Positions 28,450 to 64,000 of a DNA stretch of 64,000 nt are shown here, in pieces; within the stretch, counting starts at the first letter, position 1; every line of letters begins with the position of its first letter. The translations under genes were made by a program, and so were the position numbers. Origin of the DNA: Chromatiales bacterium (GTDB lineage Bacteria > Pseudomonadota > Gammaproteobacteria > Chromatiales > Chromatiaceae); assembly GCA_030145485.1 (NCBI GenBank), contig JAQYVP010000084.1:1900-65899 (forward strand), in the 5' to 3' direction. The notes beneath the pieces were generated by a model. It was not told the origin of the DNA. It worked only from the letters and a program-made list of their open reading frames with translations, and searched no databases.

Positions 28450-28450
<1 letters not shown>
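27464..28450 (-). CDS. Dihydroorotate dehydrogenase-like TIM-barrel flavoprotein (non-canonical)
   Basis: Class-1 DHOD-like fold. The region that is ELNLSCPN in true DHODs reads ELNVYYVAAD, so there is no catalytic Cys or Ser. The ATG shares one nucleotide with the PFOR TGA. Confidence 0.75.
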
Positions 28451-32046
<3,596 letters not shown>

Positions 32047-32260
32047 TGCGGGAGATCCATGTTTATGCAAAAGCTGAGGTAAAGATGTTAGTCGAAACTG
32101 ACTGTGGCGGCTATTGTTAATACAGTGGTTTCCCTGATTTGAGTCAATGGAAGTGGTGGCCAATATGTTGCTGCCGCAAAGAGTGATTCAGCAACAACCC
32201 CTGAAATGATGATAACTGCTAGAATAGGCGAAATCTGTATCAGGATATCTGTTAAAAATA

Positions 32261-50798: not shown

Positions 50799-51665
50799 TT
50801 AGTTGTATAGAAATTCTGACCAGCGTCCATTGTTAAGCAGTTCTCTTTTTAAATCGCTCCAGGCTTGCACAGACCCTGCCTTTTTTGCCATGATTCTATC
50901 TGTCGCATCAGCCGTTTTTTGCAAGCCGGCGAGATAGACGTAGGTATTGGGTTGGTTCAGCAATTCCCATGCTTCATCGATGTGCGAGCTGATAGATTGT
51001 TCCAGAGCATCTTTTTCATCGGAGAGAGGTCTATCAGATAAAGCATTGAATGCTTTGAAAGTCTCTTCATCGTAGTAGTTGGAGAGGTCGTTATTCTGGT
51101 CGTTCATATACAACAGATCCATGCCATTGCGCGCTCCGTAGAACAGCCGTACCTGGCCTTTCCATTCGACACCTTTCTGGTAGATACGCTGTATAAGAGA
51201 GCGGAAAGGGGCGATGCCTGTTCCTGTGCCAATCATCAGCAGATTAGCCTCAGTGGAGGCTGGGATTTTGAATATGCTTTTATAGGGGCCTGTTAGACTG
51301 AGTTTCTGCCCAGGGCGAGCGTCGCACAAATAATTTGAAGCAATACCCGGGTATTGTTCACCGTTGAATTCATCAATATAGAAACAACGGCGCACCAGGA
51401 TCGAGATCTCTATATCTTCTTGCAGTGGTCTGTTTTGAGCATTTGTAATGGAATAGCGACGCAAATGCGGTCGGCTGCCAAAAGCCTTGTCTCCATCGAC
51501 AACGATGCCTATGGTCTGCCCGGCAAGAGCACGAAAGGCTGGATCATCAACAACCATTTTGATTTCTCGTACTTCATCGGTTTCCGGGGAAGTAATCCGC
51601 GTGGTCTCCACCAGAACAGCTTTCACCGTTGAATTGAGATCCGGCTCATTTAAATTTACATTCAT
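50799..51665 (-). CDS. Plant-type ferredoxin-NADP+ reductase-like flavoenzyme
   Basis: FAD motif RRYSITN, NAD(P)-binding MIGTGTGIAPFRS, aromatic residue near the C-terminus (FLYN). Start set at the Met of MNVNLN. Confidence 0.75.
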   Translation of the reverse strand: MNVNLNEPDLNSTVKAVLVETTRITSPETDEVREIKMVVDDPAFRALAGQTIGIVVDGDKAFGSRPHLRRYSITNAQNRPLQEDIEISILVRRCFYIDEFNGEQYPGIASNYLCDARPGQKLSLTGPYKSIFKIPASTEANLLMIGTGTGIAPFRSLIQRIYQKGVEWKGQVRLFYGARNGMDLLYMNDQNNDLSNYYDEETFKAFNALSDRPLSDEKDALEQSISSHIDEAWELLNQPNTYVYLAGLQKTADATDRIMAKKAGSVQAWSDLKRELLNNGRWSEFLYN

Positions 51666-51769
51666 GATTTTAGGTTCCACAATTGATTCATATGCCAACA
51701 TACGTTGAGCAACAAGTCCCACGAAAAGAATAAACCTCACAATGAACAAAGTCCACTGTTGAACATCCA

Positions 51770-51940
51770 GGAGGCTGTCCGAGAATACGAAGACCTACTG
51801 CGGCAACACCCTTTTGGCCAGATTATCCGTCTTCAGCGTTGCAGCAAGAGTTACATAACGCTGCTATGCACTTCTTGCTGCGCTTTGAATACGAACAACA
51901 TAGCAGCACGATATTGGTGACATATTTTTTGGAGAACTGC
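51770..51940 (+). mobile_element. MITE family E, copy E3
   Basis: Central segment GCAGCAAGAGTTACATAACGCTGCT and right terminus GACATATTTTTTGGAGAACTGC match E1. The right end abuts the LysR stop codon, sharing one nucleotide with it. Confidence 0.7.
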
Positions 51941-52884
51941 TAACTCTGATCCGTTTCGTGCAGATGCCGGGTAAAAAATACGGGGTCGGCCATGTCGATG
52001 AAGGCCTTCGTCTGCGGATTGAGAAATTTGCCGCGACGTACGACCACTCCGTATGAGCGTTTGGGGATATAGGCATCCAGTGGACGCGCAGCCAGCAATT
52101 CATCACCTGTCAGGCATACGCCTGATACGATCGATATCCCCATCTCCAGGGCCACATACTTTTTGATGATCTCCCAGCCACCCGCCTCCAGTGACACCTT
52201 GAACTTTAGTCCATGCTGACTGAAAACCAGCTCCAGCATACGCCAGGTCGCCAGGTGTCGGGGCGGAAGAATCAGGCCGTAAGCACAGATATCCTTGAGG
52301 ATGAGGTTTTTTTTTGTTGCCAACGGGTGATCGGGTGGTGTAATCAGGACAGGGCTGTAGGCCATGGAGGGGCGGTAGATGATGTCGTCCGGCACATCCA
52401 GCATGGAGCCCACCGCCAGATCTGCTTTATCTGCACGCAGCATGGACATGCCATCCCGCCCGGTGACATTGTGCAGCTTCAGTTGAATTCCTGGGTAGGC
52501 GGCGGAAAAGCGTTTGATGAATTTCGGCAGGATATAGAGAATAGTGGATTCACCGGCGGCGATGTTCAGCTGCCCATGATCCAGCCGTCCGAAATGGGCA
52601 TGAAAATTATCCTCCAGACCTTCGATGCCATCAACCAGTGGTTGGGCTATCTGTAGCAGCACCATTCCTTCAGGTGTCAGAGATATTTTTGGCCCGCGGC
52701 GTTCAAACAGAGTGATTTCCATCTCCCGTTCCAGCGCCTGAATCTGCAGGGTTACCGTAGGCTGGCTCTGGAACAATGCCTCTGCCGCCTGGGAGACGCT
52801 GCCTGTTTTTGCCGCCATGCAGAAGGCGCGCAACTGCTTCAGATGGTTTTGCTTGTAGTACAGCTGTCCGGATTTCCCGCTCAT
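51940..52884 (-). CDS. LysR-family transcriptional regulator
   Basis: N-terminal wHTH (LRAFCMAAKTGSVSQAAEALFQSQPTVTLQIQALE) plus a LysR substrate domain. Divergent from rnfB. Confidence 0.9.
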   Translation of the reverse strand: MSGKSGQLYYKQNHLKQLRAFCMAAKTGSVSQAAEALFQSQPTVTLQIQALEREMEITLFERRGPKISLTPEGMVLLQIAQPLVDGIEGLEDNFHAHFGRLDHGQLNIAAGESTILYILPKFIKRFSAAYPGIQLKLHNVTGRDGMSMLRADKADLAVGSMLDVPDDIIYRPSMAYSPVLITPPDHPLATKKNLILKDICAYGLILPPRHLATWRMLELVFSQHGLKFKVSLEAGGWEIIKKYVALEMGISIVSGVCLTGDELLAARPLDAYIPKRSYGVVVRRGKFLNPQTKAFIDMADPVFFTRHLHETDQS

Positions 52885-53014: not shown

Positions 53015-53893
53015 ATGTTCGCCATCGACATTTCAAATATCGGCGTAACTATCGCTTTCATGAGCGTGCTGGGACTCGTTTTGTCGGGAGTGCTTGCAAT
53101 TGCCAACCGCAAGCTGTGGGTTTACGAGGATCCGCGTATCGATGAAGTTGAAGAACTGCTGCCTAAAACCAATTGCGGCGCCTGTGGTACTGCCGGCTGC
53201 CGCCCCTTTGCCGAGGCGCTTATTCAGGGGGAGTTGACTCCGGCCAACTGCACCGTCAGCTCCAGCGAGGAGATCGACGAGATCGCAGAATATCTGGGTG
53301 TAGAGGCTGGTGATGTCGTGAAACGGGTCGCCAGGCTCGCCTGTGCCGGAGGCGCCCATGTTGCTCGACAGAGGGCTCACTATGATGGACTTGAATCCTG
53401 CCGCGCTGCCGCCATGGTCGCCGGAGGACCCAAGAGCTGCAGCTGGGGTTGCCTGGGCATGGCGGACTGCGAAGATGTATGCGACCTCGATGCCATCACC
53501 ATGGATCAGCATGGCCTCCCTGTTGTGAACACAGCAAAATGTACCGCCTGTGAGGATTGTGTGGACATTTGCCCCAAAGGGTTGTTTTCCATTCAGCCGA
53601 TAACCCATCGGCTGTGGGTGGCCTGTAATAATTTGCTGCACGATGAAGAGGCGGAATCAGAGTGTGAAGTGGCATGCACGGGCTGCGAAAAATGTGCAAA
53701 GGATGCACCCGATGGTCTGATAGAGATCCGGGATAACCTTGCCCGCATCGATTATTCAAAAAACAGTCTGGCTTCCCCGATACCCATCGAGCGCTGCCCC
53801 ACCGGCGCTATCGTGTGGCTGGATGAAGTGAAAGGGATGCGAAAAGGCATCGAGGCCAAGCACATCATCCGTGAAGAAGCCCTTCCACTGTAG
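53015..53893 (+). CDS. rnfB: Rnf complex subunit B, extended polyferredoxin form
   Basis: N-terminal TM helix; RnfB-type CGACGTAGCRPFAEA cluster domain; several further Cys clusters including the canonical CTACEDCVDICP. 292 aa. Confidence 0.85.
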   Translation: MFAIDISNIGVTIAFMSVLGLVLSGVLAIANRKLWVYEDPRIDEVEELLPKTNCGACGTAGCRPFAEALIQGELTPANCTVSSSEEIDEIAEYLGVEAGDVVKRVARLACAGGAHVARQRAHYDGLESCRAAAMVAGGPKSCSWGCLGMADCEDVCDLDAITMDQHGLPVVNTAKCTACEDCVDICPKGLFSIQPITHRLWVACNNLLHDEEAESECEVACTGCEKCAKDAPDGLIEIRDNLARIDYSKNSLASPIPIERCPTGAIVWLDEVKGMRKGIEAKHIIREEALPL

Positions 53894-53914: not shown

Positions 53915-56900
53915 ATGAATTTTGGCAAAAAAGCACCCAAGAGTTTCAAGTATCCTGGCAAGCGCATGGCGATGGACGGCAACACAGCGGTGATCATGTG
54001 TGAGCGCGAAGCATCTGATGCGGCCGGCGCCTATCCCATCACGCCGTCTACGCAGATGGGTGAATACTGGGCCGAGGAGACAGCCAAGGGTCATGTGAAT
54101 ATCTCCAACCGCGCACTGATTTTCGTCGAACCGGAGTCTGAACATGCGGCAGCGGCAGTTACCGCAGGTATGTCCATGACTGGTCTGCGTGCCGCCAATT
54201 TCTCCTCTTCCCAGGGGGTGGCGTTCATGCATGAATCCCTGTATGCCGCAGCGGGAAAACGCTTGCCCTATGTGCTTAATATGGGTTGCCGCGCGATTAC
54301 CAAGGCCAGTCTCAATGTGCATTGCGGGCATGATGATTTTCACTGTGTCGATGATACGGGTTTCTTCCAGCTGTTCGCCAACGATGCCCAGGGGGCGGCA
54401 GATCTGAATTTGATCGGACGCAAGATTGCCGAATATGCGCTCACTCCCGCTGTGGTGGCGCAGGACGGTTTCCTCACCACCCATCTGATTGAACCGCTGC
54501 AGGTGCCGGAGCGTGAACTTATCGATGAGTATCTGGGGCGTCCGGATGACGAGATCGAATGCCCCACACCTGCCCAGCGTATATTGTTCGGTCCGAAGCG
54601 CAGGCGTATACCTGCAATCTGGGATGTGGACAAGCCGATGTTGTCGGGTTCCGTGCAGAACCAGGATGCCTTTATGCAGACTACGGCAGCCCAACGACCC
54701 TATTTCTACGATCATATTGGCAGCATCGCCGAGCAGATGATGGAGGAGTTTTATGAGCTTACCGGGCGCCGTTATGGCCGTATCACCACCTGGAATACGG
54801 ATAAAGCTGACTATGTGATCGTCGGTATGGGCTCCATGCTGGTGCAGGCCCAGGCTGTAGCTGAGTATCTGAAAAAGAGCCGCAAGCTGAAGGTGGGCGT
54901 CCTGGATGTCACCATGTTCCGGCCATTCCCCGGCGATCTTATCAGCAAGGCGCTGAAGGGTAAGAGAGGTGTGGCGGTTCTGGAGCGTACGGATCAGCCG
55001 TTGGCGGAAGATCTGCCTCTGATGCGCGAGGTGCGCGCTGCTATCTCCAAGAGTATCGAAAATGGCCAGAGCGAAGCTGAGCTTCCTTGGCCGGAGTATG
55101 CAACCTATGGCGGGTTCAAGGATTTCCCGCAACTCTACTCCGGCGCCTATGGTCTGGGTTCACGTGATCTGCAGCCGGAAGGCATCATCGGCGCCATCGA
55201 GAACATGCTGCCGGATGGCGGCAGGAAAAAGTTCTACTATCTGGGCATAGATTTCGTGCGTGAGCCTGCAAATCCAAAGCAGGAAGTCTATATCCAGGAT
55301 CTGCAGGAAGCCTATCCGAATATCGGCAGTCTCAGCATTCGGGGTTCTGAAAATCCCGATCTCATGCCGGAAAACTCCATCACGGTGCGCATGCACTCTG
55401 TTGGCGGTTGGGGCGCCATCACTACCGGCAAGAACCTGGCGATGACCCTGTATGATCTGCTTGGTTTCGAGATCCGCGCCAATCCAAAATATGGTTCGGA
55501 AAAGAAAGGCCAGCCGACGACCTATTACCTGGCTGCTGCGCCCGAGCGCATCCCGCTCAATTGTGAGTATCATTTTGTGGATGTGGTCATCTCACCTGAT
55601 CCCAACGTATTCGGCCATTCCGACCCGCTTTCCGGTCTGAAAAAGGGAGGGGTGTTTATCATCCAGTCCACTCTCAGCGAGGAGGAGTTGTGGGCCAGTT
55701 TTTCGCGCCGGGCGCAGCAGTTCATTATTGACAACGAGATTAAGGTATTCAGCATCGATGGATTCAAGATAGCACGTGAGGAGGCCAGCAACCCGGAGCT
55801 GCAACTGCGTATGCAGGGCAACGCATTTCAGGGAGCCTTCTTTGCCGCCTCCCCATTGATGGAGATGGCGGGGCTGGACGAAAAGAAACTGTTCGCCACT
55901 ATTGAAACACAGCTAAACGCCAAATTCGGCGCCAAGGGTAAGCGTGTAGTGGAAGACAACCTGCGGGTGGTGAGAAGGGGATTTGATGAAGCCAGGGAGA
56001 TTAGCCACAGCCAGGCGGTTACCAGCCAGCAGCAACAGATAAAGAGCGCATCACTGCCGGTGATGCTCAAGCATATGCCCGAGGGTGATGGTGGGATCAG
56101 TGATGTCCATCGTTTCTGGGAGCAGACAGGTAGTTTCTATGCGTCTGGCCAGGGTTCGGAGAACCTGGCCGATCCGTTCCAGGCTTTGTCGCTCATTCCC
56201 GCCGCTACCGGCGTTTTTCGGGATATGACCAACATCCGTTTTGACTACCCGCAGTGGATCGCTGAAAACTGCACCGCCTGCGGCGACTGCTACACCCTTT
56301 GTCCGGACAGCTCTATTCCGGGACTGGTGAATTCCGTGAGCGAGGTTTTCAACACGGCAATTGTGCGGGTGGAAACCGGAGGTATACCCACGCAGTATCT
56401 GCGACGCGGCAGTCGTGAGGTGGAAAAACGCCTGCGTGAGCTGCTCAATGAAGCGGGTGAAGAGGCTGAAGTACGCACCCTGCTGGATCAGGCGGTGCTT
56501 GAACACCTCGCTGCAGCAGATGTGCAGGAAGAGAAGAAGGCGCTCATGGAGCAGGAGTTCGCACGTTTTCTGGAAGCCCTTGGCGGGTTTGATTTCTCCA
56601 TAACCAAGCCCTACTGGAACGTCAAGGAGAAGAAGAGCAAAGGCTCGGGCGGTCTGTTTTCCATCACCATCAACCCATACACCTGCAAGGGGTGCATGGA
56701 GTGTGTGGATGTGTGTGATGATGATGCGCTTCGCGCTACGCCGCAGGATCAGGATGCAGTGGAGAAACTGCGCGCAGACTGGAAACTGTGGCTGGATTTG
56801 CCAACCACCAGTGAGGCCTACAGCCGCATCGATGATCTGGATGAAAAAATCGGCGCCCTGGAAACCCTGCTGCTGGACAAGGAGGCCTACCAGTCTATGG

Positions 56901-58843
56901 TGTGCGGCGACGGCGCCTGTGTGGGTTGTGGTGAAAAGACTATCATCCATCTGTTCACCGGAACGGTCTCCAAACTCATGCAGCCGCGTGTGGCGCGGCA
57001 GCTTGCCACACTGGATGATCTCATCGGGCGTCTTGAGCAGCACATCCGTTTGAAGCTGGCTGAAGGTGTGGATCTGACAGATACATCAGCGCTGCTGCAT
57101 GCCGCTGATGAAGCCGAAGGTGATCTCTCCCTGGCTAGGTTGTCAGACTCCCTGGATCCCGGCCATGAATCAACCCTGGTCGACAAGAGCTGGCTGAAAT
57201 GGGCGACAGGGGTGCTGGAGCAACTGCGGGATCTGCGCTGGTGTTATGTGGAAGGCCCGACCGGAAACGGCAGGGCGGCCATGGGTATCGTCAATTCAAC
57301 AGGCTGTACCTCCGTGTGGGGATCCACCTATCCATTCAATCCCTATCCTTTTCCCTGGGCCAGTCATCTGTTCCAGGATAGTCCCTCCATGGCGATGGGG
57401 CTGTTTGAAGGCCATATGGCAAAGATGGCTGATGGCTTCAGGGCAATCCGCATGGCGGAACTGGAGCTGAACGGCAAATACAACTCTGCGGAACATGAGG
57501 CCTGGTTCCAGCAGTTCAACTGGAAGGATTTCTCTCAGGATGAGTGGGAGTTGTGTCCGCCTGTCGTCTCTATTGGTGGCGACGGGGCGATGTATGATAT
57601 CGGCTTCCAAAATCTCTCACGCGCATTGGCTTCCGGCATGCCGATCAAGGTGCTGGTGCTGGATACCCAGGTCTATTCCAATACCGGTGGCCAGGCCTGT
57701 ACTTCCGGTTTCATTTCCCAGGTGGCGGATATGAGCCCCTATGGCAAGGCGATGAAAGGCAAAGAGGAGATCCGCAAGGAGATCTCTCTCATCGGCCTGG
57801 CGCATCGCACCAGTTTTGTGCTGCAGGGAGCGATCAACAATGTGACGCATCTGCTGGAAGGCTTTATCGACGGTCTCAACAGCCGCCGTCCCGCATTGTT
57901 CAATATCTATGCTGTGTGCCAGCCCGAGCATGGCGTCGCAGATGATGCTTCCGCCCGCCAGTCAAAAATGGCTGTAGAGTCACGCGCTTATCCATTGATG
58001 CGCTTCGACCCGGACGCCGGTGTGACCATCGAGGAGTGTCTGGAGTTGGAGGGCAATCCCGCCATGGAGCAGGACTGGCCTGATTATGCGCTCAATTTTG
58101 TGGATGAGAGTGGTAAGGAGTGCAGTATGAAGCTGCCTATGACCTTTGCCGATTTTGCCGCCACCGAAGGGCGTTTCCGCAAGCAGTTCCGGATTGCGCC
58201 GCCGGATACCTGGAGTGACGAGATGGCGCCGTTGCATGAATATCTGGATATGGACGAGGATGATCGGCAGGAGAGTTTTCCCTATATCTGGGGCGTGGAT
58301 GGCAAAAATCGTCTCATCCGTATTATCTGTTCTGCTGAAATGGTGCTCGCTTGTGAGGAGCGGCGCTCCTTCTGGCATCAGCTCAAAGGCATCGCAGGTG
58401 AACTCAACCTGGTGGATGTGGATTCGCTGGTGCAGCAGGCCAAGGTGGAGATGGCAAATCGCCTCAGCTCCACGCTGCTTTCACTGGCGGCTTCCGGCGA
58501 TGCCGGCGCCTTGACAGATGGCTTTTCAACAGAGACTATGGCAGTGCCTGGCGGCAATGGAAGCGCAGGCGGGAACGGGGCGGAAGCACCGGATTACGAG
58601 CCTGTGTGGATAGAGACGCCTGAATGCACGGCTTGTGACGAGTGCACCGAAATTGCTCCCAAAACTTTTGTCTACAATGACGACAAGCTGGCGACGGTGA
58701 GCAATCCCAAGGGAGGCAGTTATAAAGATATCGTACGCGCCGCCGAGAAATGCACCGCCGGCTGTCTGCATCCGGGAACCCCCTGGAACATGGCGGAAAA
58801 AGATATCGACAAGCTGATCAAGCGCGCCGAAAAATATCAATAA
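53915..58843 (+). CDS. Giant 2-oxoacid(pyruvate):ferredoxin oxidoreductase with C-terminal ferredoxin domain
   Basis: 1642 aa. Contains YPITPST, a gamma-domain GGWG region, a split ferredoxin domain (CTACGDCYTLCP ... CKGCMECVDVCD), CVGCGE, the TPP motif GGDGAMYDIGF...SNTGGQ, and a terminal CTACDEC...C ferredoxin module. Confidence 0.9.
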   Translation: MNFGKKAPKSFKYPGKRMAMDGNTAVIMCEREASDAAGAYPITPSTQMGEYWAEETAKGHVNISNRALIFVEPESEHAAAAVTAGMSMTGLRAANFSSSQGVAFMHESLYAAAGKRLPYVLNMGCRAITKASLNVHCGHDDFHCVDDTGFFQLFANDAQGAADLNLIGRKIAEYALTPAVVAQDGFLTTHLIEPLQVPERELIDEYLGRPDDEIECPTPAQRILFGPKRRRIPAIWDVDKPMLSGSVQNQDAFMQTTAAQRPYFYDHIGSIAEQMMEEFYELTGRRYGRITTWNTDKADYVIVGMGSMLVQAQAVAEYLKKSRKLKVGVLDVTMFRPFPGDLISKALKGKRGVAVLERTDQPLAEDLPLMREVRAAISKSIENGQSEAELPWPEYATYGGFKDFPQLYSGAYGLGSRDLQPEGIIGAIENMLPDGGRKKFYYLGIDFVREPANPKQEVYIQDLQEAYPNIGSLSIRGSENPDLMPENSITVRMHSVGGWGAITTGKNLAMTLYDLLGFEIRANPKYGSEKKGQPTTYYLAAAPERIPLNCEYHFVDVVISPDPNVFGHSDPLSGLKKGGVFIIQSTLSEEELWASFSRRAQQFIIDNEIKVFSIDGFKIAREEASNPELQLRMQGNAFQGAFFAASPLMEMAGLDEKKLFATIETQLNAKFGAKGKRVVEDNLRVVRRGFDEAREISHSQAVTSQQQQIKSASLPVMLKHMPEGDGGISDVHRFWEQTGSFYASGQGSENLADPFQALSLIPAATGVFRDMTNIRFDYPQWIAENCTACGDCYTLCPDSSIPGLVNSVSEVFNTAIVRVETGGIPTQYLRRGSREVEKRLRELLNEAGEEAEVRTLLDQAVLEHLAAADVQEEKKALMEQEFARFLEALGGFDFSITKPYWNVKEKKSKGSGGLFSITINPYTCKGCMECVDVCDDDALRATPQDQDAVEKLRADWKLWLDLPTTSEAYSRIDDLDEKIGALETLLLDKEAYQSMVCGDGACVGCGEKTIIHLFTGTVSKLMQPRVARQLATLDDLIGRLEQHIRLKLAEGVDLTDTSALLHAADEAEGDLSLARLSDSLDPGHESTLVDKSWLKWATGVLEQLRDLRWCYVEGPTGNGRAAMGIVNSTGCTSVWGSTYPFNPYPFPWASHLFQDSPSMAMGLFEGHMAKMADGFRAIRMAELELNGKYNSAEHEAWFQQFNWKDFSQDEWELCPPVVSIGGDGAMYDIGFQNLSRALASGMPIKVLVLDTQVYSNTGGQACTSGFISQVADMSPYGKAMKGKEEIRKEISLIGLAHRTSFVLQGAINNVTHLLEGFIDGLNSRRPALFNIYAVCQPEHGVADDASARQSKMAVESRAYPLMRFDPDAGVTIEECLELEGNPAMEQDWPDYALNFVDESGKECSMKLPMTFADFAATEGRFRKQFRIAPPDTWSDEMAPLHEYLDMDEDDRQESFPYIWGVDGKNRLIRIICSAEMVLACEERRSFWHQLKGIAGELNLVDVDSLVQQAKVEMANRLSSTLLSLAASGDAGALTDGFSTETMAVPGGNGSAGGNGAEAPDYEPVWIETPECTACDECTEIAPKTFVYNDDKLATVSNPKGGSYKDIVRAAEKCTAGCLHPGTPWNMAEKDIDKLIKRAEKYQ

Positions 58844-58860
58844 CAACACAGGCTACAGGT

Positions 58861-60201
58861 ATGGGCATTTTCAATTTATTTGGCGCAGGCACATTCAGGC
58901 ATGGCGTGCATCCACCGTCACATAAGGCGGCGACTGCACATCAGCCAATCCGGCGATTGCCTTTTCCTGACCACCTGGTTATCCCTCTCAACCAGCACAT
59001 CGGCAAGCCGGCAAAACTGCTGGTGAAAAAAGGGCAGGAGGTGGTGCGTGGCGAACCTCTCGCCAGTGCAGACGGCTTTGTCTCGGTTCCCATTCATGCT
59101 CCGGCCACGGGCCGCATCCGCGATATCAGGCTCATGCCCTCCGCCAGGGGGGAGCAGGCCATGGCGATTATTCTGCATGTCTATGCAGCGGCCACGCAGG
59201 AGGTGTTGTGGCGCAACCCTGTGGATCCTGGCGCACTGGATCCACAGGGGATGATTCAGGCCATTCAGGATACGGGTATGGTGGGACTGGGTGGCGCCGC
59301 ATTCCCCTCCCATGTGAAGCTCTCCATTCCTGAAGAGAAGAGCGTCGATACACTGGTCGTCAATGGTTGTGAATGTGAGCCATACCTGAGCTGCGATCAC
59401 CGCACCATGCTGGAGCATCCACGCGAGCTGATGCGCGGCATTCGTTATGCGATGCAGGCTACCGGAGTCAGCAAGGCGATTGTGGGTGTGGAAGAGAATA
59501 AGATGGATGCAGTGAAACTGCTGCGTGAGCACCTGCATGCGCAGAGCGATATCAGCGTGGAAGCTGTAGAGACGAAATACCCCCAGGGATCGGAAAAGAT
59601 GCTGATCAAATCCCTCATGGGACGGGAAGTTCCTGCCGGAGGAATTCCCCTGGATATCGGCGTAGTCGTGAATAACGTGGGCACCCTGGCTGCCCTCGGC
59701 AAGCTGCTCCCTGTTGGCGAAGGATTGACAGAACGTGTGGTGACGGTTACGGGACCGGGTGTCGAAAAACCGGGCAACTATATTATTCCTCTCGGTACTC
59801 CTATCGGCTATGTACTGAAACAGGTTGGATATATTGGAGGGGAGAATGAATTCATACTGGGCGGCCCCATGATGGGTCCTTCGGTTTCAGACATGGAAAC
59901 CCCTGTGACCAAGGGTACCTCCGGTCTGCTGGTTTTGAATGAACCTGAAATTGAACAGGAGACCCGCCGCATCTGGCCATGCATCAAATGCGGCCGCTGT
60001 CTCAACGCATGCCCCATGCACCTCAATCCGGCGTATCTGGGACTGTTGGCCGCCAAGCGGGAGTATGAAGAGATGGCGCAAACGTATCACCTCAATGACT
60101 GCTTCGAGTGCGGCTGCTGCTCTTATGTCTGCCCCTCCAATATCCCGCTGGTGCAGCACTTCCGCATCGCCAAGGCGATCAACCGCGAACAGGCAGCCTG
60201 A
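58861..60201 (+). CDS. rnfC: Rnf complex subunit C
   Basis: GLGGAAFP NADH/FMN region and two 4Fe-4S motifs (CIKCGRCLNACP, CFECGCCSYVCP). Start set at the Met of MGIFNLFG. Confidence 0.9.
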   Translation: MGIFNLFGAGTFRHGVHPPSHKAATAHQPIRRLPFPDHLVIPLNQHIGKPAKLLVKKGQEVVRGEPLASADGFVSVPIHAPATGRIRDIRLMPSARGEQAMAIILHVYAAATQEVLWRNPVDPGALDPQGMIQAIQDTGMVGLGGAAFPSHVKLSIPEEKSVDTLVVNGCECEPYLSCDHRTMLEHPRELMRGIRYAMQATGVSKAIVGVEENKMDAVKLLREHLHAQSDISVEAVETKYPQGSEKMLIKSLMGREVPAGGIPLDIGVVVNNVGTLAALGKLLPVGEGLTERVVTVTGPGVEKPGNYIIPLGTPIGYVLKQVGYIGGENEFILGGPMMGPSVSDMETPVTKGTSGLLVLNEPEIEQETRRIWPCIKCGRCLNACPMHLNPAYLGLLAAKREYEEMAQTYHLNDCFECGCCSYVCPSNIPLVQHFRIAKAINREQAA

Positions 60202-61238
60202 TGGCTAAAAAACCTGCCATCGAGTTGCGCACAACGCCGCATATTCATGCGCCGCAGGATGTGATAATGATCATGCGCAACGTAGTGTATGCCTCCCTTC
60301 CCATGGCGGCCTGGGCTGTCTGGCAATATGGCTTGAGCGCCCTGATGCTGCTGCTTGTTGTCGTTGCCAGCTGCATGCTGAGCGAGCGCGTGCTCAATGC
60401 GAAACAGGGCAACACTCTGGGTGACTGGTCAGCCGCTATTACCGGTATCCTGCTGTTTCTCACTCTGCCTCCAGGTTTCCCCCTGTGGATGGGCGTCATC
60501 GCCGGGTTTAGTGCGATTGGCCTGGGCAAGGCGTTGTTTGGCGGGCTGGGGATGAATGTTTTCAACCCTGCGCTGGTGGGACGCGCCTTTGTACAGGCCG
60601 CCTTTCCGGTGGCCATCACCAGTTGGACGCCGGCGTTCTTTGATGGCCGCTTTACCACCCTGATTCCTTCGACGCTGACGGCGCCTTTCATGATCCCGCC
60701 AGAGACGGGCGAATGGAATATGCAGGTGGCGGTGGACGCATTCACAGGCGCCACCCCGCTTGGGTTGCAAAAGTTTGACGCTGTAAGCACTCCTGTGCTG
60801 GATTTACTCACCGGTATGACAGCGGGTTCCGCCGGCGAGTCTGCAGCATTGATCATCCTCGTGTGCGGTCTCTATCTGGCATTTCGCGGCATGCTGGACT
60901 GGCGCATACCTGTTGCGGTTATGGCTGGAACCGCAATCACCGCTGCGGTATTCCATTTCATCGACCCGGTGGCTTATCCTGACGCCATGTTCATGCTGTT
61001 TTCCGGCGGACTCATGTTGGGCGCCTGGTTCATGGCGTCGGACATGGTCGGTTCGCCCGTAACGCCCGCAGGTGTGATCATCTACGGGCTGCTGATAGGG
61101 TTCGTTACCGTCATTATCCGCCTGTTTGGCGGACTGACCGAGGGTGTCATGTATGCCATACTGCTGGGCAATGCCGTCACTCCTCTCATCGATCAAGTCA
61201 CACAGCCACGGGTATTTGGCCACAGGAAATCTTCATGA
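60201..61238 (+). CDS. rnfD: Rnf complex subunit D
   Basis: Polytopic NqrB/RnfD family with the TGATPL flavinylation motif. The ATG overlaps the rnfC TGA. Confidence 0.9.
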   Translation: MAKKPAIELRTTPHIHAPQDVIMIMRNVVYASLPMAAWAVWQYGLSALMLLLVVVASCMLSERVLNAKQGNTLGDWSAAITGILLFLTLPPGFPLWMGVIAGFSAIGLGKALFGGLGMNVFNPALVGRAFVQAAFPVAITSWTPAFFDGRFTTLIPSTLTAPFMIPPETGEWNMQVAVDAFTGATPLGLQKFDAVSTPVLDLLTGMTAGSAGESAALIILVCGLYLAFRGMLDWRIPVAVMAGTAITAAVFHFIDPVAYPDAMFMLFSGGLMLGAWFMASDMVGSPVTPAGVIIYGLLIGFVTVIIRLFGGLTEGVMYAILLGNAVTPLIDQVTQPRVFGHRKSS

Positions 61239-61924
61239 GCACTGCTGAGCAGCAGCTGCAGGTTCCTCAGAGCCCCAGCATCTCCATGATGGTGGTGCTC
61301 AGCAGCATCGCCATGGTGTCGGGGTTTCTGGTGGTGTTGGTCTCCCAGTTGACTGCTCCAATCATCGCCGAGAATCAACGCAGGGCGATCGAACGGGCGC
61401 TGGTTCAGGTAATCCCCGGTTCAGTCAGTCATGAGGAATTTCTGTTGCAGGATGGAAAGCTGCTGCCTGCAGAAGATTCGGCTGCGGGTGAAAGCGTCTA
61501 TGCAGGCTATGACGCCAATGGCGAACTGGTGGGCATTGCAGCGCGCGCCGCCGCCCAGGGCTATGCGGATATGATTCACCTGCTGTATGGCTATGACCCG
61601 GCCTGTGAATGTATTCGCGGGATTAAAGTGCTGAAGATGGCGGAAACTCCCGGGTTAGGGGACAAAATCATCAAGGATGCCGATTTCCTGGCCAATTTTG
61701 ATGCACTTGATGCCAGTGTGGATATGCAGCAAATGGCACTGGTGAATCCTATTATCATGGTCAAACACGGCAGCAAGCAGCATCCATGGGAGATAGATGC
61801 GATATCCGGCGCCACTATCTCCGCCAAGGCTGTAGGCAAAGCTTTGAACCAGTCGGCGCAGGCGCTGCTGCCGCAACTGCTGCCGCTCATGCAGCAGTTG
61901 GAACGGCAGGAGCAGCAGCCATGA
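61235..61924 (+). CDS. rnfG: Rnf complex subunit G
   Basis: N-terminal anchor and an FMN-binding domain with the SGATISAKAV motif. Confidence 0.82.
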   Translation: MSTAEQQLQVPQSPSISMMVVLSSIAMVSGFLVVLVSQLTAPIIAENQRRAIERALVQVIPGSVSHEEFLLQDGKLLPAEDSAAGESVYAGYDANGELVGIAARAAAQGYADMIHLLYGYDPACECIRGIKVLKMAETPGLGDKIIKDADFLANFDALDASVDMQQMALVNPIIMVKHGSKQHPWEIDAISGATISAKAVGKALNQSAQALLPQLLPLMQQLERQEQQP

Positions 61925-62580
61925 GTCAACGCAGGAGTGATCCACATATTACCTGGGATAGCTTTTCCGAAGGACTATGGAGAAACAACCCGGTGTTTGT
62001 CATGCTGCTGGGGATGTGTCCGGTGCTGGCCGTGACCAATTCTGCCATGAATGCTCTGGCGATGGGGCTGGCAACCACTTTCGTACTGGTGGCTTCCGGT
62101 TACCTGGTGTCACTGTTGAGCCGATTCATTCCTCGCCAGGTGCGCATCGCCACCTACATCGTCATCATCGCCACCTTTGTCACCATCATCGACTATGTGA
62201 TCCAGGCAATCTCTCTTGATCTCTACAATTCACTGGGCGCTTTCATCCAGCTGATCGTGGTGAACTGCATGATTCTGGGACGGGCGGAAGCCTATGCATC
62301 CAAAAACCGCCCCATGAAATCAGTGGTGAATGCACTGGGTATGGGAGCCGGTTTTACCTTTGCCCTGCTGTGTTTGGGAGGCGTACGCGAATTGCTGGGC
62401 ACCGGCGCCCTGTTTGGCTTTGATCTGTTTGGTCCGCAATTTCAGCCATGGGTGGTGATGGTTCTGCCTCCCGGCGGCTTCCTGGTTCTGGGAGCCTGGC
62501 TGCTGCTGTTTGACTGGTTGAAGCAGCGCCGCGAGCAGAAACAACTGGCAATATCCGGAGAGCAAACCAATGCAGTCTGA
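61921..62580 (+). CDS. rnfE: Rnf complex subunit E
   Basis: GLWRNNPVFVMLLGMCP signature of RnfE/NqrD. ATGA overlap with rnfG. Confidence 0.9.
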   Translation: MSQRRSDPHITWDSFSEGLWRNNPVFVMLLGMCPVLAVTNSAMNALAMGLATTFVLVASGYLVSLLSRFIPRQVRIATYIVIIATFVTIIDYVIQAISLDLYNSLGAFIQLIVVNCMILGRAEAYASKNRPMKSVVNALGMGAGFTFALLCLGGVRELLGTGALFGFDLFGPQFQPWVVMVLPPGGFLVLGAWLLLFDWLKQRREQKQLAISGEQTNAV

Positions 62581-63154
62581 TTCCCTTATATTTATCTTTT
62601 TGAATACTGTACTGGCGAATAACTTCGTACTAGCGATGTTCCTGGGTCTGTGTCCTTTTCTGGGGGTATCCGGCAAGCTCAACACGGCTGTCCCCATGGG
62701 TATCGCCACTATGTTCGTCATGCTGGTGAGTTCAGTCTGTGCATTTGCCATCAACAAGGTGCTGGTTGCCCTGGATATTGAATTTTTACGCCTGATCGCT
62801 TACATCGCCATCATCGCTAGCGCCGTACAGCTGGTTGAGATGGGACTCAAAAAATACAGCCCCACTCTGTTCCGCTCTCTGGGGATTTTTCTGCCGCTGA
62901 TTACGACCAACTGCGCCATCCTTGGTCTGGCACTGTTTCAGACCTTCAAGGAGTACAATTTCAGCCAGTCACTGGTTTATGCCGTAGGAGCAGGGATCGG
63001 GTTTATCCTGGCGATTACGTTGATGGCGGGGTTGCGGGAAAAACTTCTCTTATCCACTTTGCCCAGCGTCACACAGGGTGCGGCACTGAGTCTTATGCTG
63101 GGAGGATTGCTTTCGCTCACTTTTATGGGTTTTGCAGGCTTGGGAAATCTCTGA
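62570..63154 (+). CDS. rnfA: Rnf complex subunit A
   Basis: NNFVLAMFLGLCPFLGVS signature of RnfA/NqrE. 11-nt overlap with rnfE. Confidence 0.9.
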   Translation: MQSDSLIFIFLNTVLANNFVLAMFLGLCPFLGVSGKLNTAVPMGIATMFVMLVSSVCAFAINKVLVALDIEFLRLIAYIAIIASAVQLVEMGLKKYSPTLFRSLGIFLPLITTNCAILGLALFQTFKEYNFSQSLVYAVGAGIGFILAITLMAGLREKLLLSTLPSVTQGAALSLMLGGLLSLTFMGFAGLGNL

Positions 63155-63156
63155 AT

Positions 63157-63345
63157 ATGTGGCAATATGTGATCGCGATGATCCTTGTGCCTGTGCTGCT
63201 CATCGGCTGGCTGATCATCCAGCAGTTGGGGCGGCGCTCTGCCAAAGCGCACCCGGAGATGGGCGCCTATCGGGAAGAGGGAGGCGGCTGCGGAAAGAGT
63301 TGCGGCTGTCATGGCGGCAGCTGTAAGAATAAGAACAAGGAGTGA
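63157..63345 (+). CDS. Small membrane-anchored Cys-rich protein (resembles FeoB-associated Cys-rich family)
   Basis: 62 aa; one N-terminal TM helix, then GGGCGKSCGCHGGSCKNKNKE. The ATG lies 2 nt after the rnfA stop. Confidence 0.5.
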   Translation: MWQYVIAMILVPVLLIGWLIIQQLGRRSAKAHPEMGAYREEGGGCGKSCGCHGGSCKNKNKE

Positions 63346-63504: not shown

Positions 63505-64000
63505 ATGAATAGCTCTGAAACTGACAAGAATGCGGCTGTTCGCACGGTCTTTTTTGTGTCGGACGGCACGGGATTGACGGCGGAGTCTTATGGCAAGAGC
63601 TTGCTGGCGCAGTTTCCCGAACTGGAGTTTGTCACTGTCACCCTGGCATTTGTGGATACGCAGGAGAAGGCGAGGCTGGCCGGTGACCAGATTAACATGG
63701 AAAAGACCCGCTCAGGGTTCAGGCCTGTGGTTTTCAGCACTCTGGTTGATGAGGTTGAACAGGCGATTATCGAATGCTGCAGCGCCTGTGTGATCAACCT
63801 GTTTCATGCATTTCTCGGCCCGCTGGAAAACTGTTTTGGTGTGGAATCGGCGCATACCCAGGGAATGTCGCGTACGGTCCTTGGAGACAAAAGTTACCTG
63901 CTGCGGCTGGATGCTATCGATTATTCGCTGGCCCATGATGATGGTGTGCGCCCGGATCAATACTACGAGGCGGACGTAATCCTGGTGGGTGTCTCGCGCT
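63505..64000 (+). CDS. ppsR: PEP synthase regulatory protein (pyruvate, water dikinase kinase/phosphorylase), 5' partial in window
   Basis: Hand translation MNSSETDKNAAVRTVFFVSDGTGLTAE...IDYSLAHDDG...VILVGVSR matches the PpsR/DUF299 family. It runs off the window end and is absent from the ORF track for that reason. Confidence 0.85.
   Translation, partial: MNSSETDKNAAVRTVFFVSDGTGLTAESYGKSLLAQFPELEFVTVTLAFVDTQEKARLAGDQINMEKTRSGFRPVVFSTLVDEVEQAIIECCSACVINLFHAFLGPLENCFGVESAHTQGMSRTVLGDKSYLLRLDAIDYSLAHDDGVRPDQYYEADVILVGVSR

What the first reader, a model, noticed from the sequence alone, without database searches (positions are those of the whole stretch)
53915..58843. Unusual architecture of the 1642-aa OFOR: split ferredoxin domain, relocated helical insert and fused terminal ferredoxin
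The canonical NifJ-type PFOR in this same window (28450-32046) serves as an internal comparator. The spacer between the two CxxCxxCxxxC(P/D) motifs of domain V is 126 aa here versus 45 aa in the canonical enzyme. The segment between CVGCGE and the TGC(S/T)S motif is 121 aa versus 20 aa. The C-terminus after the conserved C(Q/I)(P/A)(E/H)HG region is about 300 aa versus about 107 aa. It ends in a separate single-cluster ferredoxin module (PECTACDECTEIAP...EKCTAGCLHPG, nt ~58597-58790), preceded by a Gly/Ala/Ser-rich linker. The core catalytic motifs (YPITPST, GDG...SNTGGQ) are intact, so this is an active-looking but structurally expanded family member. The inference is that an enzyme carrying its own acceptor/donor ferredoxin forms a hard-wired electron path.
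Basis: partly seen in the sequence, partly recalled or inferred. Interest (0 to 1): 0.65.

Follow-up and report, generated by a model that had tools for sequence, protein, structure and literature searches.

The report
Rnf-operon oxoacid oxidoreductase with tethered ferredoxin
A giant, apparently active pyruvate-type oxidoreductase that carries its own ferredoxin on a flexible tether is encoded inside the operon of a membrane ion pump (Rnf) in hundreds of sulfur-oxidising bacteria, which suggests that the enzyme and the pump pass electrons directly to each other.

Summary
ORF 53915-58843 encodes a 1642-aa 2-oxoacid:ferredoxin oxidoreductase (OFOR). It has a 127-aa helical insert splitting the two-cluster ferredoxin domain, a 121-aa helical insert before the TGCTS motif, and a 302-aa tail. 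The tail ends, after an Ala/Gly-rich linker modelled as disordered, in a one-cluster ferredoxin whose model superposes on D. africanus ferredoxin I (TM 0.85). Catalytic and cluster residues are invariant in 80 orthologues.

The gene sits between rnfB and rnfC, and that order holds in every related locus with enough flank, across Gamma- and Betaproteobacteria; at least 590 species genomes carry a relative. Both inserts are ancestral to a deep "long-form" clade. Most of its divergent members have lost the TPP and proximal-cluster residues but keep the split ferredoxin domain. The five such members whose loci I read all follow rnfB; where DNA continues, rnfC comes next, often with a separate KorAB-type OFOR nearby.

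Best reading: a dedicated Rnf partner whose tethered ferredoxin shuttles electrons to RnfB. The "relocated" insert is not supported. The gene order was noted in 2014; I found no description of the architecture or the degenerate relatives. New variant of a known kind; no biochemistry.

The parts
53915..58843 (+). Long-form 2-oxoacid:ferredoxin oxidoreductase, 1642 aa
   Evidence: ORF and translation. Pfam POR_N, PFOR_II, POR, TPP_enzyme_C and Fer4_13. TIGR02176 scores 402 bits against a cutoff of 911. Best solved relative is 6CIN PFOR, E 2.5e-83.
54011..54739 (+). Domain I (POR_N, residues 33-275), with YPIT43PS, TPP-activating E76, substrate R126 and V135
   Evidence: The BLASTP alignment to the canonical PFOR maps these onto the D. 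africanus residues T31, E64, R114 and I123; the D. africanus numbering is from memory. All are 100% conserved in 80 orthologues.
54806..55054 (+). Domain II (PFOR_II, residues 298-380)
55403..55987 (+). Domain III (POR; CoA-binding gamma domain, residues 497-691)
   Evidence: Foldseek matches PorC-type chains with TMt 0.79-0.84.
56270..56302 (+). First CxxCxxCxxxC motif of the ferredoxin domain (C786, C789, C792, C796)
   Evidence: 100% conserved in 80 orthologues and in 66 of 70 distant long forms.
56303..56683 (+). Insert 1: 127 aa splitting the ferredoxin domain, predicted as four helices (808-821, 829-847, 853-867, 872-889)
   Evidence: In the AF2 model, 10-residue block pLDDT means across these helices are 84-92. 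Median length 128 aa across distant long forms against 46 aa in the canonical PFOR.
56684..56716 (+). Second CxxCxxCxxxC motif (C924, C927, C930, C934)
56918..56935 (+). CVGCGE: two ligands of the TPP-proximal [4Fe-4S] cluster (C1002, C1005)
   Evidence: The spacing matches the canonical C828, C831, C856 and C1087. 100% conserved.
56936..57298 (+). Insert 2: 121 aa, with one long helix (about 1006-1050) and further helices to about 1112
   Evidence: Median 121 aa in long forms against 20 aa in the canonical PFOR. No similarity to the canonical helical insert.
57299..57313 (+). TGCTS: third proximal-cluster ligand, C1131
57578..57694 (+). TPP/Mg-binding GDG(1222-1224)...SNTGGQ(1255-1260), followed by the invariant extra Cys C1262
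57917..57934 (+). CQPEHG: fourth proximal-cluster ligand, C1335
57935..58495 (+). Folded C-terminal extension (residues 1341-1527). The first ~90 aa align to the canonical PFOR C-terminus; the last ~100 aa (beta-hairpin plus two helices) are specific to long forms.
   Evidence: BLASTP aligns through residue 1429. AF2 pLDDT mostly 80-91 to about residue 1490, lower (60-63) near the linker. Residues up to about 1495 are present in essentially all long forms.
58496..58594 (+). Ala/Gly/Ser-rich flexible linker (residues 1528-1560)
   Evidence: Identity 0.31 and 17% gaps in orthologues. pLDDT 27-46. Median length 30 aa, composition 29% Ala and 21% Gly.
58595..58840 (+). Tethered mono-cluster ferredoxin module (ligands C1571, C1574, C1577, C1613) plus a conserved basic C-terminal helix (about 1631-1641)
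   Evidence: Fer4_13 hit. Alignment to 1DAX. The four Cys are invariant in near and far homologues. AF2 pLDDT 85.5. 1FXR match with TMt 0.85 and rmsd 0.8 A. Helix conservation.
53015..53893 (+). rnfB (292 aa, polyferredoxin type), ending 21 nt upstream of the OFOR
   Evidence: Pfam FeS plus Fer4. PDB 9ERI_B (A. woodii RnfB) 1.4e-47 and 7ZC6_B. TIGR01944 above its cutoff. Upstream of the OFOR in every related locus whose contig reaches far enough upstream.
58861..60201 (+). rnfC (446 aa), starting 17 nt after the OFOR stop
   Evidence: RnfC_N, Complex1_51K, SLBB and Fer4. Synteny.
60201..61238 (+). rnfD
   Evidence: Translation. Conserved position in the loci. The corresponding gene in L085 hits Pfam NQR2_RnfD_RnfE.
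61235..61924 (+). rnfG
   Evidence: The corresponding gene in L085 hits FMN_bind.
61921..62580 (+). rnfE (start inferred at the internal ATG that overlaps the rnfG stop)
62570..63154 (+). rnfA
63157..63345 (+). Conserved 62-aa membrane protein with a Cys-rich tail, probably the last gene of the operon
   Evidence: Conserved at the same position after rnfA in at least 30 loci. No NCBIfam family. A terminator-like hairpin lies at 63531-63549.
51940..52884 (-). Divergently transcribed LysR-family regulator
   Evidence: Pfam HTH_1 plus LysR_substrate. Same position and orientation in 18 of the related loci.

Best explanation
The 1642-aa protein is a catalytically competent TPP/[4Fe-4S] 2-oxoacid:ferredoxin oxidoreductase. 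Its substrate is most likely pyruvate or another small 2-oxoacid. It belongs to a deep 'long-form' clade and works as the dedicated redox partner of the Rnf complex encoded around it. The operon is rnfB, OFOR, rnfCDGEA and a small Cys-rich membrane ORF.

Proposed electron path: TPP site, then the proximal cluster (C1002, C1005, C1131, C1335), then the two clusters of the split ferredoxin domain (C786-796 and C924-934), then the C-terminal one-cluster ferredoxin (C1571, C1574, C1577, C1613). That ferredoxin hangs on a linker of about 30 residues that is modelled as disordered, and it delivers electrons to the RnfB polyferredoxin, and so to NAD+.

The assembly would then act as an ion-motive 2-oxoacid:NAD+ oxidoreductase. 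Run in reverse, it would be a membrane-potential-driven, NADH-dependent pyruvate synthase with little need for soluble ferredoxin. The two helical inserts and the folded tail are ancestral scaffold elements of the clade. They are inferred to serve docking or assembly, not catalysis.

Shown here: the architecture, residue conservation, the ferredoxin fold of the terminus, the modelled disorder of the linker, and the operon synteny. Inferred: the substrate, the direction of the reaction, the Fd-to-RnfB transfer, and any physical association.
For: - Core intact: T43, E76, R126, V135, GDG and SNTGGQ are 100% conserved in 80 orthologues, and all 12 core cluster Cys are 100% conserved.
- Terminal ferredoxin: Fer4_13 above the gathering score; end-to-end alignment to D. 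africanus Fd I; model pLDDT 85.5 with 1FXR TM 0.85 and rmsd 0.8 A; four Cys invariant in near and far homologues.
- Linker: variable and modelled as disordered.
- Synteny: rnfB-OFOR-rnfC(DGEA) holds in all of the 80 related loci where the flanks reach, across Sedimenticolaceae, Thiodiazotropha, Chromatiaceae, Thiothrix, animal symbionts and Rhodocyclaceae. Intergenic gaps are 21 and 17 nt in the window.
- Deeper relatives: the more distant long forms whose loci I read also follow rnfB and, where DNA continues, precede rnfC, including catalytically dead ones. This argues for a role tied to Rnf itself.
- Separate polypeptide: in some operons the tail plus ferredoxin module is a separate protein just upstream of rnfB.
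- Other partners: two intact long forms outside rnf operons sit next to GltD/NfnB-like NAD(P)H oxidoreductases, a comparable link to pyridine nucleotides.
- Separate role: the same window also has a canonical NifJ-type PFOR (TIGR02176, 1806 bits), so the long form probably has a distinct job.
Against: - No biochemical, expression or structural data for this protein were found.
- Operon membership shows co-expression, not contact.
- The AF2 model of residues 443-1642 is only moderate (pLDDT 70.7, pTM 0.60) and gives no inter-domain geometry. Cluster-to-cluster distances and the reach of the tether are therefore untested.
- The ferredoxin module is missing from many long forms, including some that are Rnf-linked, so it is not essential to the clade.
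- One intact long form is not next to any redox partner.
- The substrate is inferred from four aligned residues only.
Confidence: 0.6

Rival explanations
1. It is a stand-alone PFOR isoenzyme. It uses diffusible ferredoxin or flavodoxin like NifJ, and placement in the rnf operon gives only co-regulation, because Rnf consumes or regenerates the same ferredoxin pool. The terminal ferredoxin is then an extra internal cluster that extends the chain to the surface, or it protects or regulates the enzyme in the way domain VII does in D. africanus PFOR.
For: - All canonical catalytic and cluster residues are present.
- At least one intact long form is not adjacent to any redox partner.
- The ferredoxin module is dispensable in many clade members.
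- The 2014 S. velum symbiont genome paper read the arrangement simply as pyruvate being an electron donor for Rnf.
Against: - The position between rnfB and rnfC is strictly kept across at least two proteobacterial classes, and more distant long forms from Deltaproteobacteria and Calditrichota MAGs occupy the same position.
- The same position is kept by relatives that can no longer catalyse anything. Mere pool-sharing does not explain that.
- A linker of about 30 residues modelled as disordered fits a mobile carrier better than a fixed extra cluster.
Confidence: 0.25
2. Its main role is structural. It would be an Fe-S adaptor subunit that docks another OFOR (KorAB type) or another ferredoxin-dependent enzyme onto Rnf, as its degenerate relatives presumably do. 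Its own 2-oxoacid chemistry would be secondary or vestigial.
For: - 61 of 70 full-length distant representatives have lost the TPP residues (53 of them also the proximal-cluster residues) yet keep the eight Cys of the split ferredoxin domain and both inserts.
- Four of the five degenerate forms whose loci I read lie directly between rnfB and rnfC; the fifth follows rnfB but is followed by an IS element. Three of the five operons also encode a separate KorAB-type OFOR.
Against: - In this lineage every catalytic, TPP-binding and proximal-cluster residue is invariant over 80 orthologues at 64-77% identity. That indicates selection on catalysis.
- No KorAB genes occur in the window or in the 7-kb flanks of the 80 close loci.
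Confidence: 0.1
3. The enzyme is Rnf-coupled but acts on a different substrate, such as 2-oxoglutarate, a branched-chain or aromatic 2-oxoacid, or glyoxylate/oxalate. This rival concerns the substrate only and is compatible with the Rnf coupling proposed above.
For: - It scores far below the PFOR equivalog cutoff (402 against 911 bits).
- The domain IV region is divergent, with no EKR hit.
- Related operons carry KorAB-type (2-oxoglutarate-like) enzymes.
Against: - The residues that contact pyruvate in D. africanus PFOR are conserved or conservatively replaced: T31 to T43, R114 to R126, I123 to V135, N996 to N1256 (the D. africanus numbering is from memory).
- The closest solved relatives are all PFORs.
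Confidence: 0.25

Closest known systems
Homodimeric NifJ-type pyruvate:ferredoxin oxidoreductase (D. africanus 1B0P, M. thermoacetica 6CIN; TIGR02176)
   Same: Single-chain domain order I-II-III-(IV)-V-VI. TPP motif GDG...SNTGGQ. Three [4Fe-4S] clusters with the same ligand pattern. The residues aligned to the pyruvate-contacting positions are conserved.
   Different: About 23-29% identity, and 402 bits against the 911-bit cutoff. A 127-aa four-helix insert lies inside the ferredoxin domain and a 121-aa helical insert lies before TGCTS. The post-TGCSS helical region is shorter (88 against 119 aa). There is no EKR hit. The tail is 302 aa with a tethered ferredoxin. The gene is embedded in an rnf operon.
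Desulfovibrio africanus ferredoxin I and other mono-cluster [4Fe-4S]/[3Fe-4S] ferredoxins (Pfam Fer4_13)
   Same: The terminal module has the same CxxCxxC...C pattern, aligns over the whole length of Fd I, and its predicted fold superposes at 0.8 A.
   Different: It is not a free protein. It is fused through a flexible linker to a roughly 1500-aa enzyme and carries an additional conserved basic C-terminal helix.
Pyruvate:NADP+ oxidoreductase (PNO) of Euglena and Cryptosporidium, and NADH-dependent phenylglyoxylate dehydrogenase PadEFGHI (recalled from the literature; the Pad models appear in NCBIfam)
   Same: Concept: an OFOR that is fused or operonically coupled to a module passing its low-potential electrons to a pyridine nucleotide without free ferredoxin. 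Long forms outside rnf operons sit next to GltD/NfnB-like proteins.
   Different: Here the NAD-linked module would be the membrane-bound, ion-translocating Rnf complex, and the fused carrier is a ferredoxin. PNO instead has a flavodoxin/FNR-type reductase domain. No flavin or NAD(P)-binding domain is present in this protein.
Rnf complexes of A. woodii, C. tetanomorphum and A. vinelandii (9ERI, 7ZC6, 8AHX)
   Same: RnfB here is of the long polyferredoxin type, closest to the A. woodii and C. tetanomorphum RnfB. A full rnfBCDGEA set is present.
   Different: None of the Rnf chains matched here (9ERI, 7ZC6, 8AHX) is an OFOR, and to my knowledge none of those solved or characterised complexes includes an OFOR or a gene inserted between rnfB and rnfC. 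This operon also has an extra small Cys-rich membrane ORF.

Membership tests
2-oxoacid:ferredoxin oxidoreductase (OFOR) superfamily | The POR_N, PFOR_II, POR(gamma) and TPP_enzyme_C domains | tested here: met
   Pfam hits, all above their gathering scores.
2-oxoacid:ferredoxin oxidoreductase (OFOR) superfamily | TPP/Mg-binding GDG...N motif and the TPP-activating Glu | tested here: met
   GDG 1222-1224, SNTGGQ 1255-1260 and E76, invariant in 80 orthologues.
2-oxoacid:ferredoxin oxidoreductase (OFOR) superfamily | CoA-dependent 2-oxoacid oxidation or reductive carboxylation activity | not testable with these tools
   Needs an enzyme assay.
NifJ-type homodimeric PFOR (TIGR02176 equivalog) | Score at or above the curated equivalog cutoff | tested here: not met
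   402.1 bits against a cutoff of 911.35, matched in three broken stretches. The in-window NifJ scores 1805.9 bits.
NifJ-type homodimeric PFOR (TIGR02176 equivalog) | Twelve Cys ligating three [4Fe-4S] clusters in the canonical order | tested here: met
   C786/789/792/796, C924/927/930/934 and C1002/1005/1131/1335.
NifJ-type homodimeric PFOR (TIGR02176 equivalog) | Compact ferredoxin domain V (about 45-aa inter-motif spacer), a short CxGCGE-to-TGCSS segment, and domain IV (EKR) | tested here: not met
   Spacers of 127 and 121 aa against 46 and 20 aa. No EKR hit.
NifJ-type homodimeric PFOR (TIGR02176 equivalog) | Pyruvate-contacting residues (D. africanus T31, R114, I123, N996; numbering from memory) | tested here: met
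   T43, R126, V135 and N1256, from the alignment to the canonical PFOR. I123 is replaced by Val.
Mono-cluster ferredoxin (Pfam Fer4_13) | Profile match above the gathering score, with CxxCxxC plus a distal Cys | tested here: met
   29.3 bits against 24.5. C1571, C1574, C1577 and C1613 are invariant.
Mono-cluster ferredoxin (Pfam Fer4_13) | Ferredoxin fold | tested here: met
   AF2 pLDDT 85.5. Foldseek top hit 1FXR with TMt 0.85 and rmsd 0.8 A; the next hits are all mono-cluster ferredoxins.
Mono-cluster ferredoxin (Pfam Fer4_13) | Actual Fe-S cluster content and type ([4Fe-4S] or [3Fe-4S]) and its potential | not testable with these tools
   Needs EPR or metal analysis.
Rnf complex (as an accessory subunit) | Encoded within the rnf operon in conserved order | tested here: met
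   rnfB-OFOR-rnfCDGEA in all related loci with sufficient flanks, and in distant relatives.
Rnf complex (as an accessory subunit) | Physical association and electron transfer with RnfB | not testable with these tools
   Needs co-purification, cryo-EM or kinetics.
Pyruvate:NADP+ oxidoreductase (PNO-type fusion) | C-terminal flavodoxin/FNR-like NADPH-reductase domain | tested here: not met
   No flavodoxin, FAD_binding or NAD_binding hit in the protein. A separate plant-type FNR gene lies nearby instead.

The most novel reading that the evidence does not exclude
Long-form OFOR proteins are physical subunits of a distinct, widespread class of Rnf complexes. They would create a membrane-bound, ion-motive 2-oxoacid:NAD+ oxidoreductase, or in reverse a membrane-potential-driven NADH-dependent pyruvate synthase, that bypasses soluble ferredoxin. 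The clade-specific helical inserts and the tail would form the docking scaffold. In many lineages the subunit has decayed into a pseudo-enzyme that keeps only its two-cluster ferredoxin domain, and it would then wire a separate KorAB-type OFOR to Rnf.
Probability: 0.35. Interest if true: 0.85.

Novelty: new variant of a known kind. Interest (0 to 1): 0.68.

Why it matters
Rnf and PFOR are two central machines of low-potential electron metabolism. They are thought to communicate through a diffusible ferredoxin pool.

This gene family points to dedicated, possibly physical coupling in at least 590 species, mostly sulfur-oxidising, that include major animal symbionts and purple sulfur bacteria. 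If that is right, a membrane potential could drive CO2 fixation into pyruvate directly from NADH. In the other direction, pyruvate oxidation would pump ions without free ferredoxin. This bears on how these autotrophs and diazotrophs obtain low-potential electrons in the presence of oxygen.

The many catalytically dead relatives that remain next to rnfB give a natural experiment on what the non-catalytic scaffold does. The operon also gives structural biologists a concrete target: an Rnf with an extra subunit of about 180 kDa.

Tried and rejected
- **Relocated insert.** BLASTP of insert 2 (1008-1128) against the canonical PFOR found only E = 14 to the canonical helical region 909-975. Insert 1 and the tail gave nothing significant, and there are no internal repeats. 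Relocation is not supported.
- **Fold search with the 1200-residue model.** It returned PFORs but with TM of only about 0.3, because the domain arrangement without domains I and II is unreliable. It could not be used to place the inserts relative to the dimer interface or the cluster chain. The tools return no coordinates, so no cluster distances could be measured.
- **Literature.** Nine full-text searches found only one passing mention of the gene order (Dmytrenko 2014, PMC4287430) and an unexplained 'PFOR-like ferredoxin' in Endoriftia transcriptomics. The Biegel 2011 Rnf review is not held. Subscription journals are not covered, so a prior description cannot be excluded.
- **Artefact of a fused ORF or frameshift.** Rejected. 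At least 120 database clusters and 80 genome loci encode the same 1630-1690-aa protein.
- **KorAB genes near the close relatives.** None were found in the window or in the 7-kb flanks of the 80 loci.
- **Formal phylogeny of long against canonical forms.** Not built. The only support for a clade is that the top 150 representatives for residues 740-1642 include no full-length hit with canonical spacing. All but one of the 68 full-length representatives measured carry both inserts, and that exception still has insert 2.
Full report
**1.
Window 53915-58843 (+) is one uninterrupted ORF of 1642 codons.
- The two CxxCxxCxxxC motifs of the ferredoxin domain lie at residues 786-796 and 924-934. That is 127 aa apart, or 126 if the trailing P/D is counted. 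In the NifJ-type PFOR of the same window (28450-32046, minus strand, 1198 aa) the gap is 46 or 45 aa.
- CVGCGE (1002-1007) is 121 aa from TGCTS (1129), against 20 aa in the canonical enzyme.
- 302 aa follow CQPEHG (1335-1340), against 107 aa.
- Pfam finds POR_N 33-275, PFOR_II 298-380, POR 497-691, TPP_enzyme_C 1216-1272 and a C-terminal Fer4_13 at 1569-1619 above its gathering score. It finds no EKR domain.
- The protein scores 402 bits on the PFOR equivalog TIGR02176, whose cutoff is 911. The in-window NifJ scores 1806 bits end to end. The long protein is therefore an OFOR that lies outside the curated PFOR family.
- Aligned to D. africanus PFOR, insert 1 falls between Da707 and Da728 and insert 2 between Da824 and Da830. 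The solved PFORs lack both inserts.

**2. The enzyme core looks functional.**
The BLASTP alignment to the canonical PFOR maps D. africanus T31, E64, R114, I123 and N996 (numbering from my own knowledge) onto T43, E76, R126, V135 and N1256.
- In 80 orthologues of 64-77% identity taken from species genomes, these residues, GDG 1222-1224 and SNTGGQ 1255-1260 are 100% conserved.
- All 12 Cys of the three core clusters are also 100% conserved.
- The closest solved structures are the M. thermoacetica and D. africanus PFORs.

**3. The terminus is a real ferredoxin on a flexible tether.**
- Residues 1565-1619 align over the full length of D. africanus ferredoxin I (1DAX/1FXR) at E 1.2e-6, with all five Cys in register.
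- C1571, C1574, C1577 and C1613 are invariant in both near and distant relatives that carry the module.
- An AF2 model of residues 1545-1642 has mean pLDDT 85.5. Its best PDB match is 1FXR, with target TM 0.85 and rmsd 0.8 A. The next matches are the mono-cluster ferredoxins of Bacillus, Pyrococcus, Thermotoga and D. gigas.
- The preceding segment, 1528-1560, is the least conserved part of the protein (identity 0.31, 17% gaps). It is Ala/Gly-rich with a median length of 30 aa and is modelled with pLDDT 27-46. It looks like a flexible tether, not a rigid wire.
- A conserved basic helix ends the protein.

**4. The inserts and the tail.**
In the AF2 model of residues 443-1642 (pLDDT 70.7, pTM 0.60):
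- Insert 1 forms four helices; the 10-residue block pLDDT means across them are 84-92.
- Insert 2 forms one very long helix (about 1006-1050) plus further helices to about 1112.
- Residues 1342-1527 form a folded extension with pLDDT mostly 80-91 to about residue 1490 and lower (60-63) near the linker.

Insert 2 shows no sequence similarity to the canonical helical insert that follows TGCSS (E = 14). 'Relocation' is therefore unsupported. The global fold search was uninformative about domain packing, with TM about 0.3.

**5. Context is the main new result.**
- The gene lies 21 nt after rnfB (53015-53893) and 17 nt before rnfC (58861-60201). Next come rnfD, rnfG, rnfE and rnfA, a conserved 62-aa Cys-rich membrane ORF, and a terminator-like hairpin.
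- A scan of one genome per species found at least 590 genomes with a full-length relative.
- In the 80 loci retrieved, the order rnfB-OFOR-rnfC(DGEA) is kept wherever the flanks reach. The carriers include Sedimenticola, Ca. Thiodiazotropha, tubeworm and Solemya symbionts, Thiohalomonadaceae, Thiocapsa, Allochromatium, Thiothrix and betaproteobacterial Sulfuritalea and Sulfurisoma.
- A divergent LysR gene recurs in 18 loci and a plant-type FNR gene in about 25 loci.
- RnfB is of the long polyferredoxin type, closest to the A. woodii and C. tetanomorphum RnfB.
- The S. velum symbiont genome paper of 2014 already remarked that PFOR genes lie between rnfB2 and rnfC2. I found no description of the architecture.

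**6. The clade is deeper and stranger than the finding suggests.**
- A search of residues 740-1642 against 1.84 billion representatives returned many proteins of 1420-1690 aa at 28-52% identity.
- Of the 68 full-length ones measured, all but one carry both inserts. The medians are 128 and 121 aa, and every tail is at least 194 aa.
- Of the 70 full-length representatives classified, only 5 keep the TPP and proximal-cluster residues. Eight keep the proximal Cys but not the TPP residues. Fifty-three keep only the eight Cys of the split ferredoxin domain.
- Counting by 50%-identity clusters over-represents fast-evolving degenerate forms, but they are clearly numerous and phylogenetically broad. 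Named examples come from Methylococcaceae, Deltaproteobacteria and Calditrichota MAGs.
- All five degenerate forms whose loci I read follow rnfB. Four lie directly before rnfC. In the Methylococcaceae contig an IS1 transposase and short ORFs follow instead, with no rnfC in the DNA read.
- Three of those five operons also encode a KorAB-type two-subunit OFOR and a second long-form paralogue ending in Fer4_13. The operon of an intact 48%-identity form (P0128) also carries KorAB. One degenerate-form operon encodes a stand-alone 367-aa copy of the tail plus ferredoxin module upstream of rnfB.
- Two intact long forms outside rnf operons, from Leptospiraceae and Propionibacteriaceae, are followed by GltD/NfnB-like NAD(P)H oxidoreductases. 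One is solitary.
- The terminal ferredoxin is present in only a subset of long forms.

**7. Interpretation.**
That non-catalytic relatives persist in the same operon position is hard to explain by sharing a ferredoxin pool. It points to a role bound to Rnf itself.

For the window's protein, where every catalytic residue is under purifying selection, I propose a dedicated Rnf partner. Electrons would pass from TPP through the three core clusters to the tethered ferredoxin, which would deliver them to RnfB. The result would be an ion-motive 2-oxoacid:NAD+ oxidoreductase or, in reverse, a membrane-potential-driven pyruvate synthase.

Architecture, conservation, fold and synteny are shown. Substrate, direction, Fd-to-RnfB transfer and physical association are inferred. 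Rivals are a stand-alone isoenzyme that is merely co-regulated, a chiefly structural adaptor, and a different substrate.

**8. Comparison and novelty.**
- It works like a PFOR but fails the PFOR equivalog test and two architectural features of that family.
- Its terminus meets the sequence and fold tests for a mono-cluster ferredoxin.
- It resembles PNO and the NADH-dependent phenylglyoxylate dehydrogenase only in concept, as an OFOR coupled to a pyridine-nucleotide module.
- It is best filed as a new variant of a known kind: a widespread but uncharacterised long-form OFOR clade linked to Rnf.
- In Endoriftia transcriptomics, KorA(3), KorB(3) and a 'PFOR-like ferredoxin' have consecutive locus tags and all fall under sulfide limitation. 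This hints that related modules are expressed and co-regulated. I did not verify orthology.

Noticed in passing
Proteins P0122-P0270; loci L081, L082, L087, L088, L089: Most divergent long-form relatives are pseudo-enzymes. 53 of 70 full-length representatives have lost YPITPS, the TPP Glu, GDG...SNTGGQ and the proximal-cluster Cys, yet keep the eight Cys of the split ferredoxin domain and both inserts. All five whose loci I read follow rnfB, and four are directly followed by rnfC. Named sources are Methylococcaceae, Deltaproteobacteria and Calditrichota MAGs.
   Followed up: partly
L085 1987-4871; L087 1-2766; L088 9920-12807; L089 1569-4441: Distant rnf/long-form operons also carry a two-subunit KorAB-type OFOR (POR+POR_N of about 620-645 aa, then TPP_enzyme_C+PFO_beta_C of about 320 aa). 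None is present in the window or in the flanks of the 80 close loci.
   Followed up: partly
L082 23-1126; L087 2750-7132; L089 4474-7017: Upstream of rnfB, some operons encode a stand-alone 367-aa homologue of the OFOR tail plus ferredoxin module. Others encode a second degenerate long-form paralogue (847-1460 aa) that ends in the same Fer4_13 module.
   Followed up: partly
window 63157-63345 (+): A 62-aa ORF starts 3 nt after the rnfA stop. It has one predicted TM helix and a Cys-rich tail (GGGCGKSCGCHGGSC). It is conserved at the same position in at least 30 related loci and has no NCBIfam family. A terminator-like hairpin follows at 63531-63549.
   Followed up: partly
window 50799-51749 (-): A plant/cyanobacterial-type ferredoxin-NADP+ reductase homologue (PetH-like, about 150 bits). 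In about 25 of the 80 related loci the orthologue lies directly downstream of rnfA on the operon strand. Here it lies beyond the LysR gene on the other strand.
   Followed up: partly
window 51940-52884 (-): A LysR/CysB-like regulator is divergently transcribed from rnfB. It is conserved in the same position in 18 related loci and is a candidate operon regulator.
   Followed up: partly
window 54590-54613 (residues 226-233) and 57698-57700 (C1262): The basic motif GPKRRRIP in domain I is 97-100% conserved, even in the degenerate long forms, but is absent from the canonical PFOR. An extra Cys immediately after SNTGGQA is invariant in the 80 orthologues; the canonical PFOR has Ser there.
   Followed up: no
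L083 13446-16397; L084 12022-14041: Intact long-form OFORs of Leptospiraceae and Propionibacteriaceae are not in rnf operons. They are followed directly by GltD/NfnB-like proteins (Fer4_20 + Pyr_redox_2, with or without NAD_binding_1 and DHODB_Fe-S_bind), which suggests a soluble 2-oxoacid:NAD(P)+ system.
   Followed up: partly
L081 13053-13810: In the Methylococcaceae contig, the degenerate long form after rnfB is followed by an IS1-family transposase instead of rnfC. The operon there may be disrupted.
   Followed up: no
L038 11920-17322: About 5.4 kb separate the OFOR from rnfC in this one locus. In the others the gap is mostly tens to a few hundred nt (up to about 800 nt). This may be an insertion.
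   Followed up: no
PMC11636981, Supplementary Table: In Ca. Endoriftia persephone, KorA(3), KorB(3) and a 'PFOR-like ferredoxin' have consecutive locus tags (LOY14_RS16060 to RS16070) and all decrease under sulfide limitation. This may be the same KorAB plus Fer4_13-protein module seen in the distant operons. Orthology was not checked.
   Followed up: no
window 28450-32046 (-): The canonical NifJ-type PFOR (TIGR02176, 1806 bits) is encoded 22 kb away in the same window. The organism therefore keeps both a standard and a long-form enzyme. The mechanical ORF extends to a TTG at 32163, but the ATG at 32046 fits the family model.
   Followed up: partly
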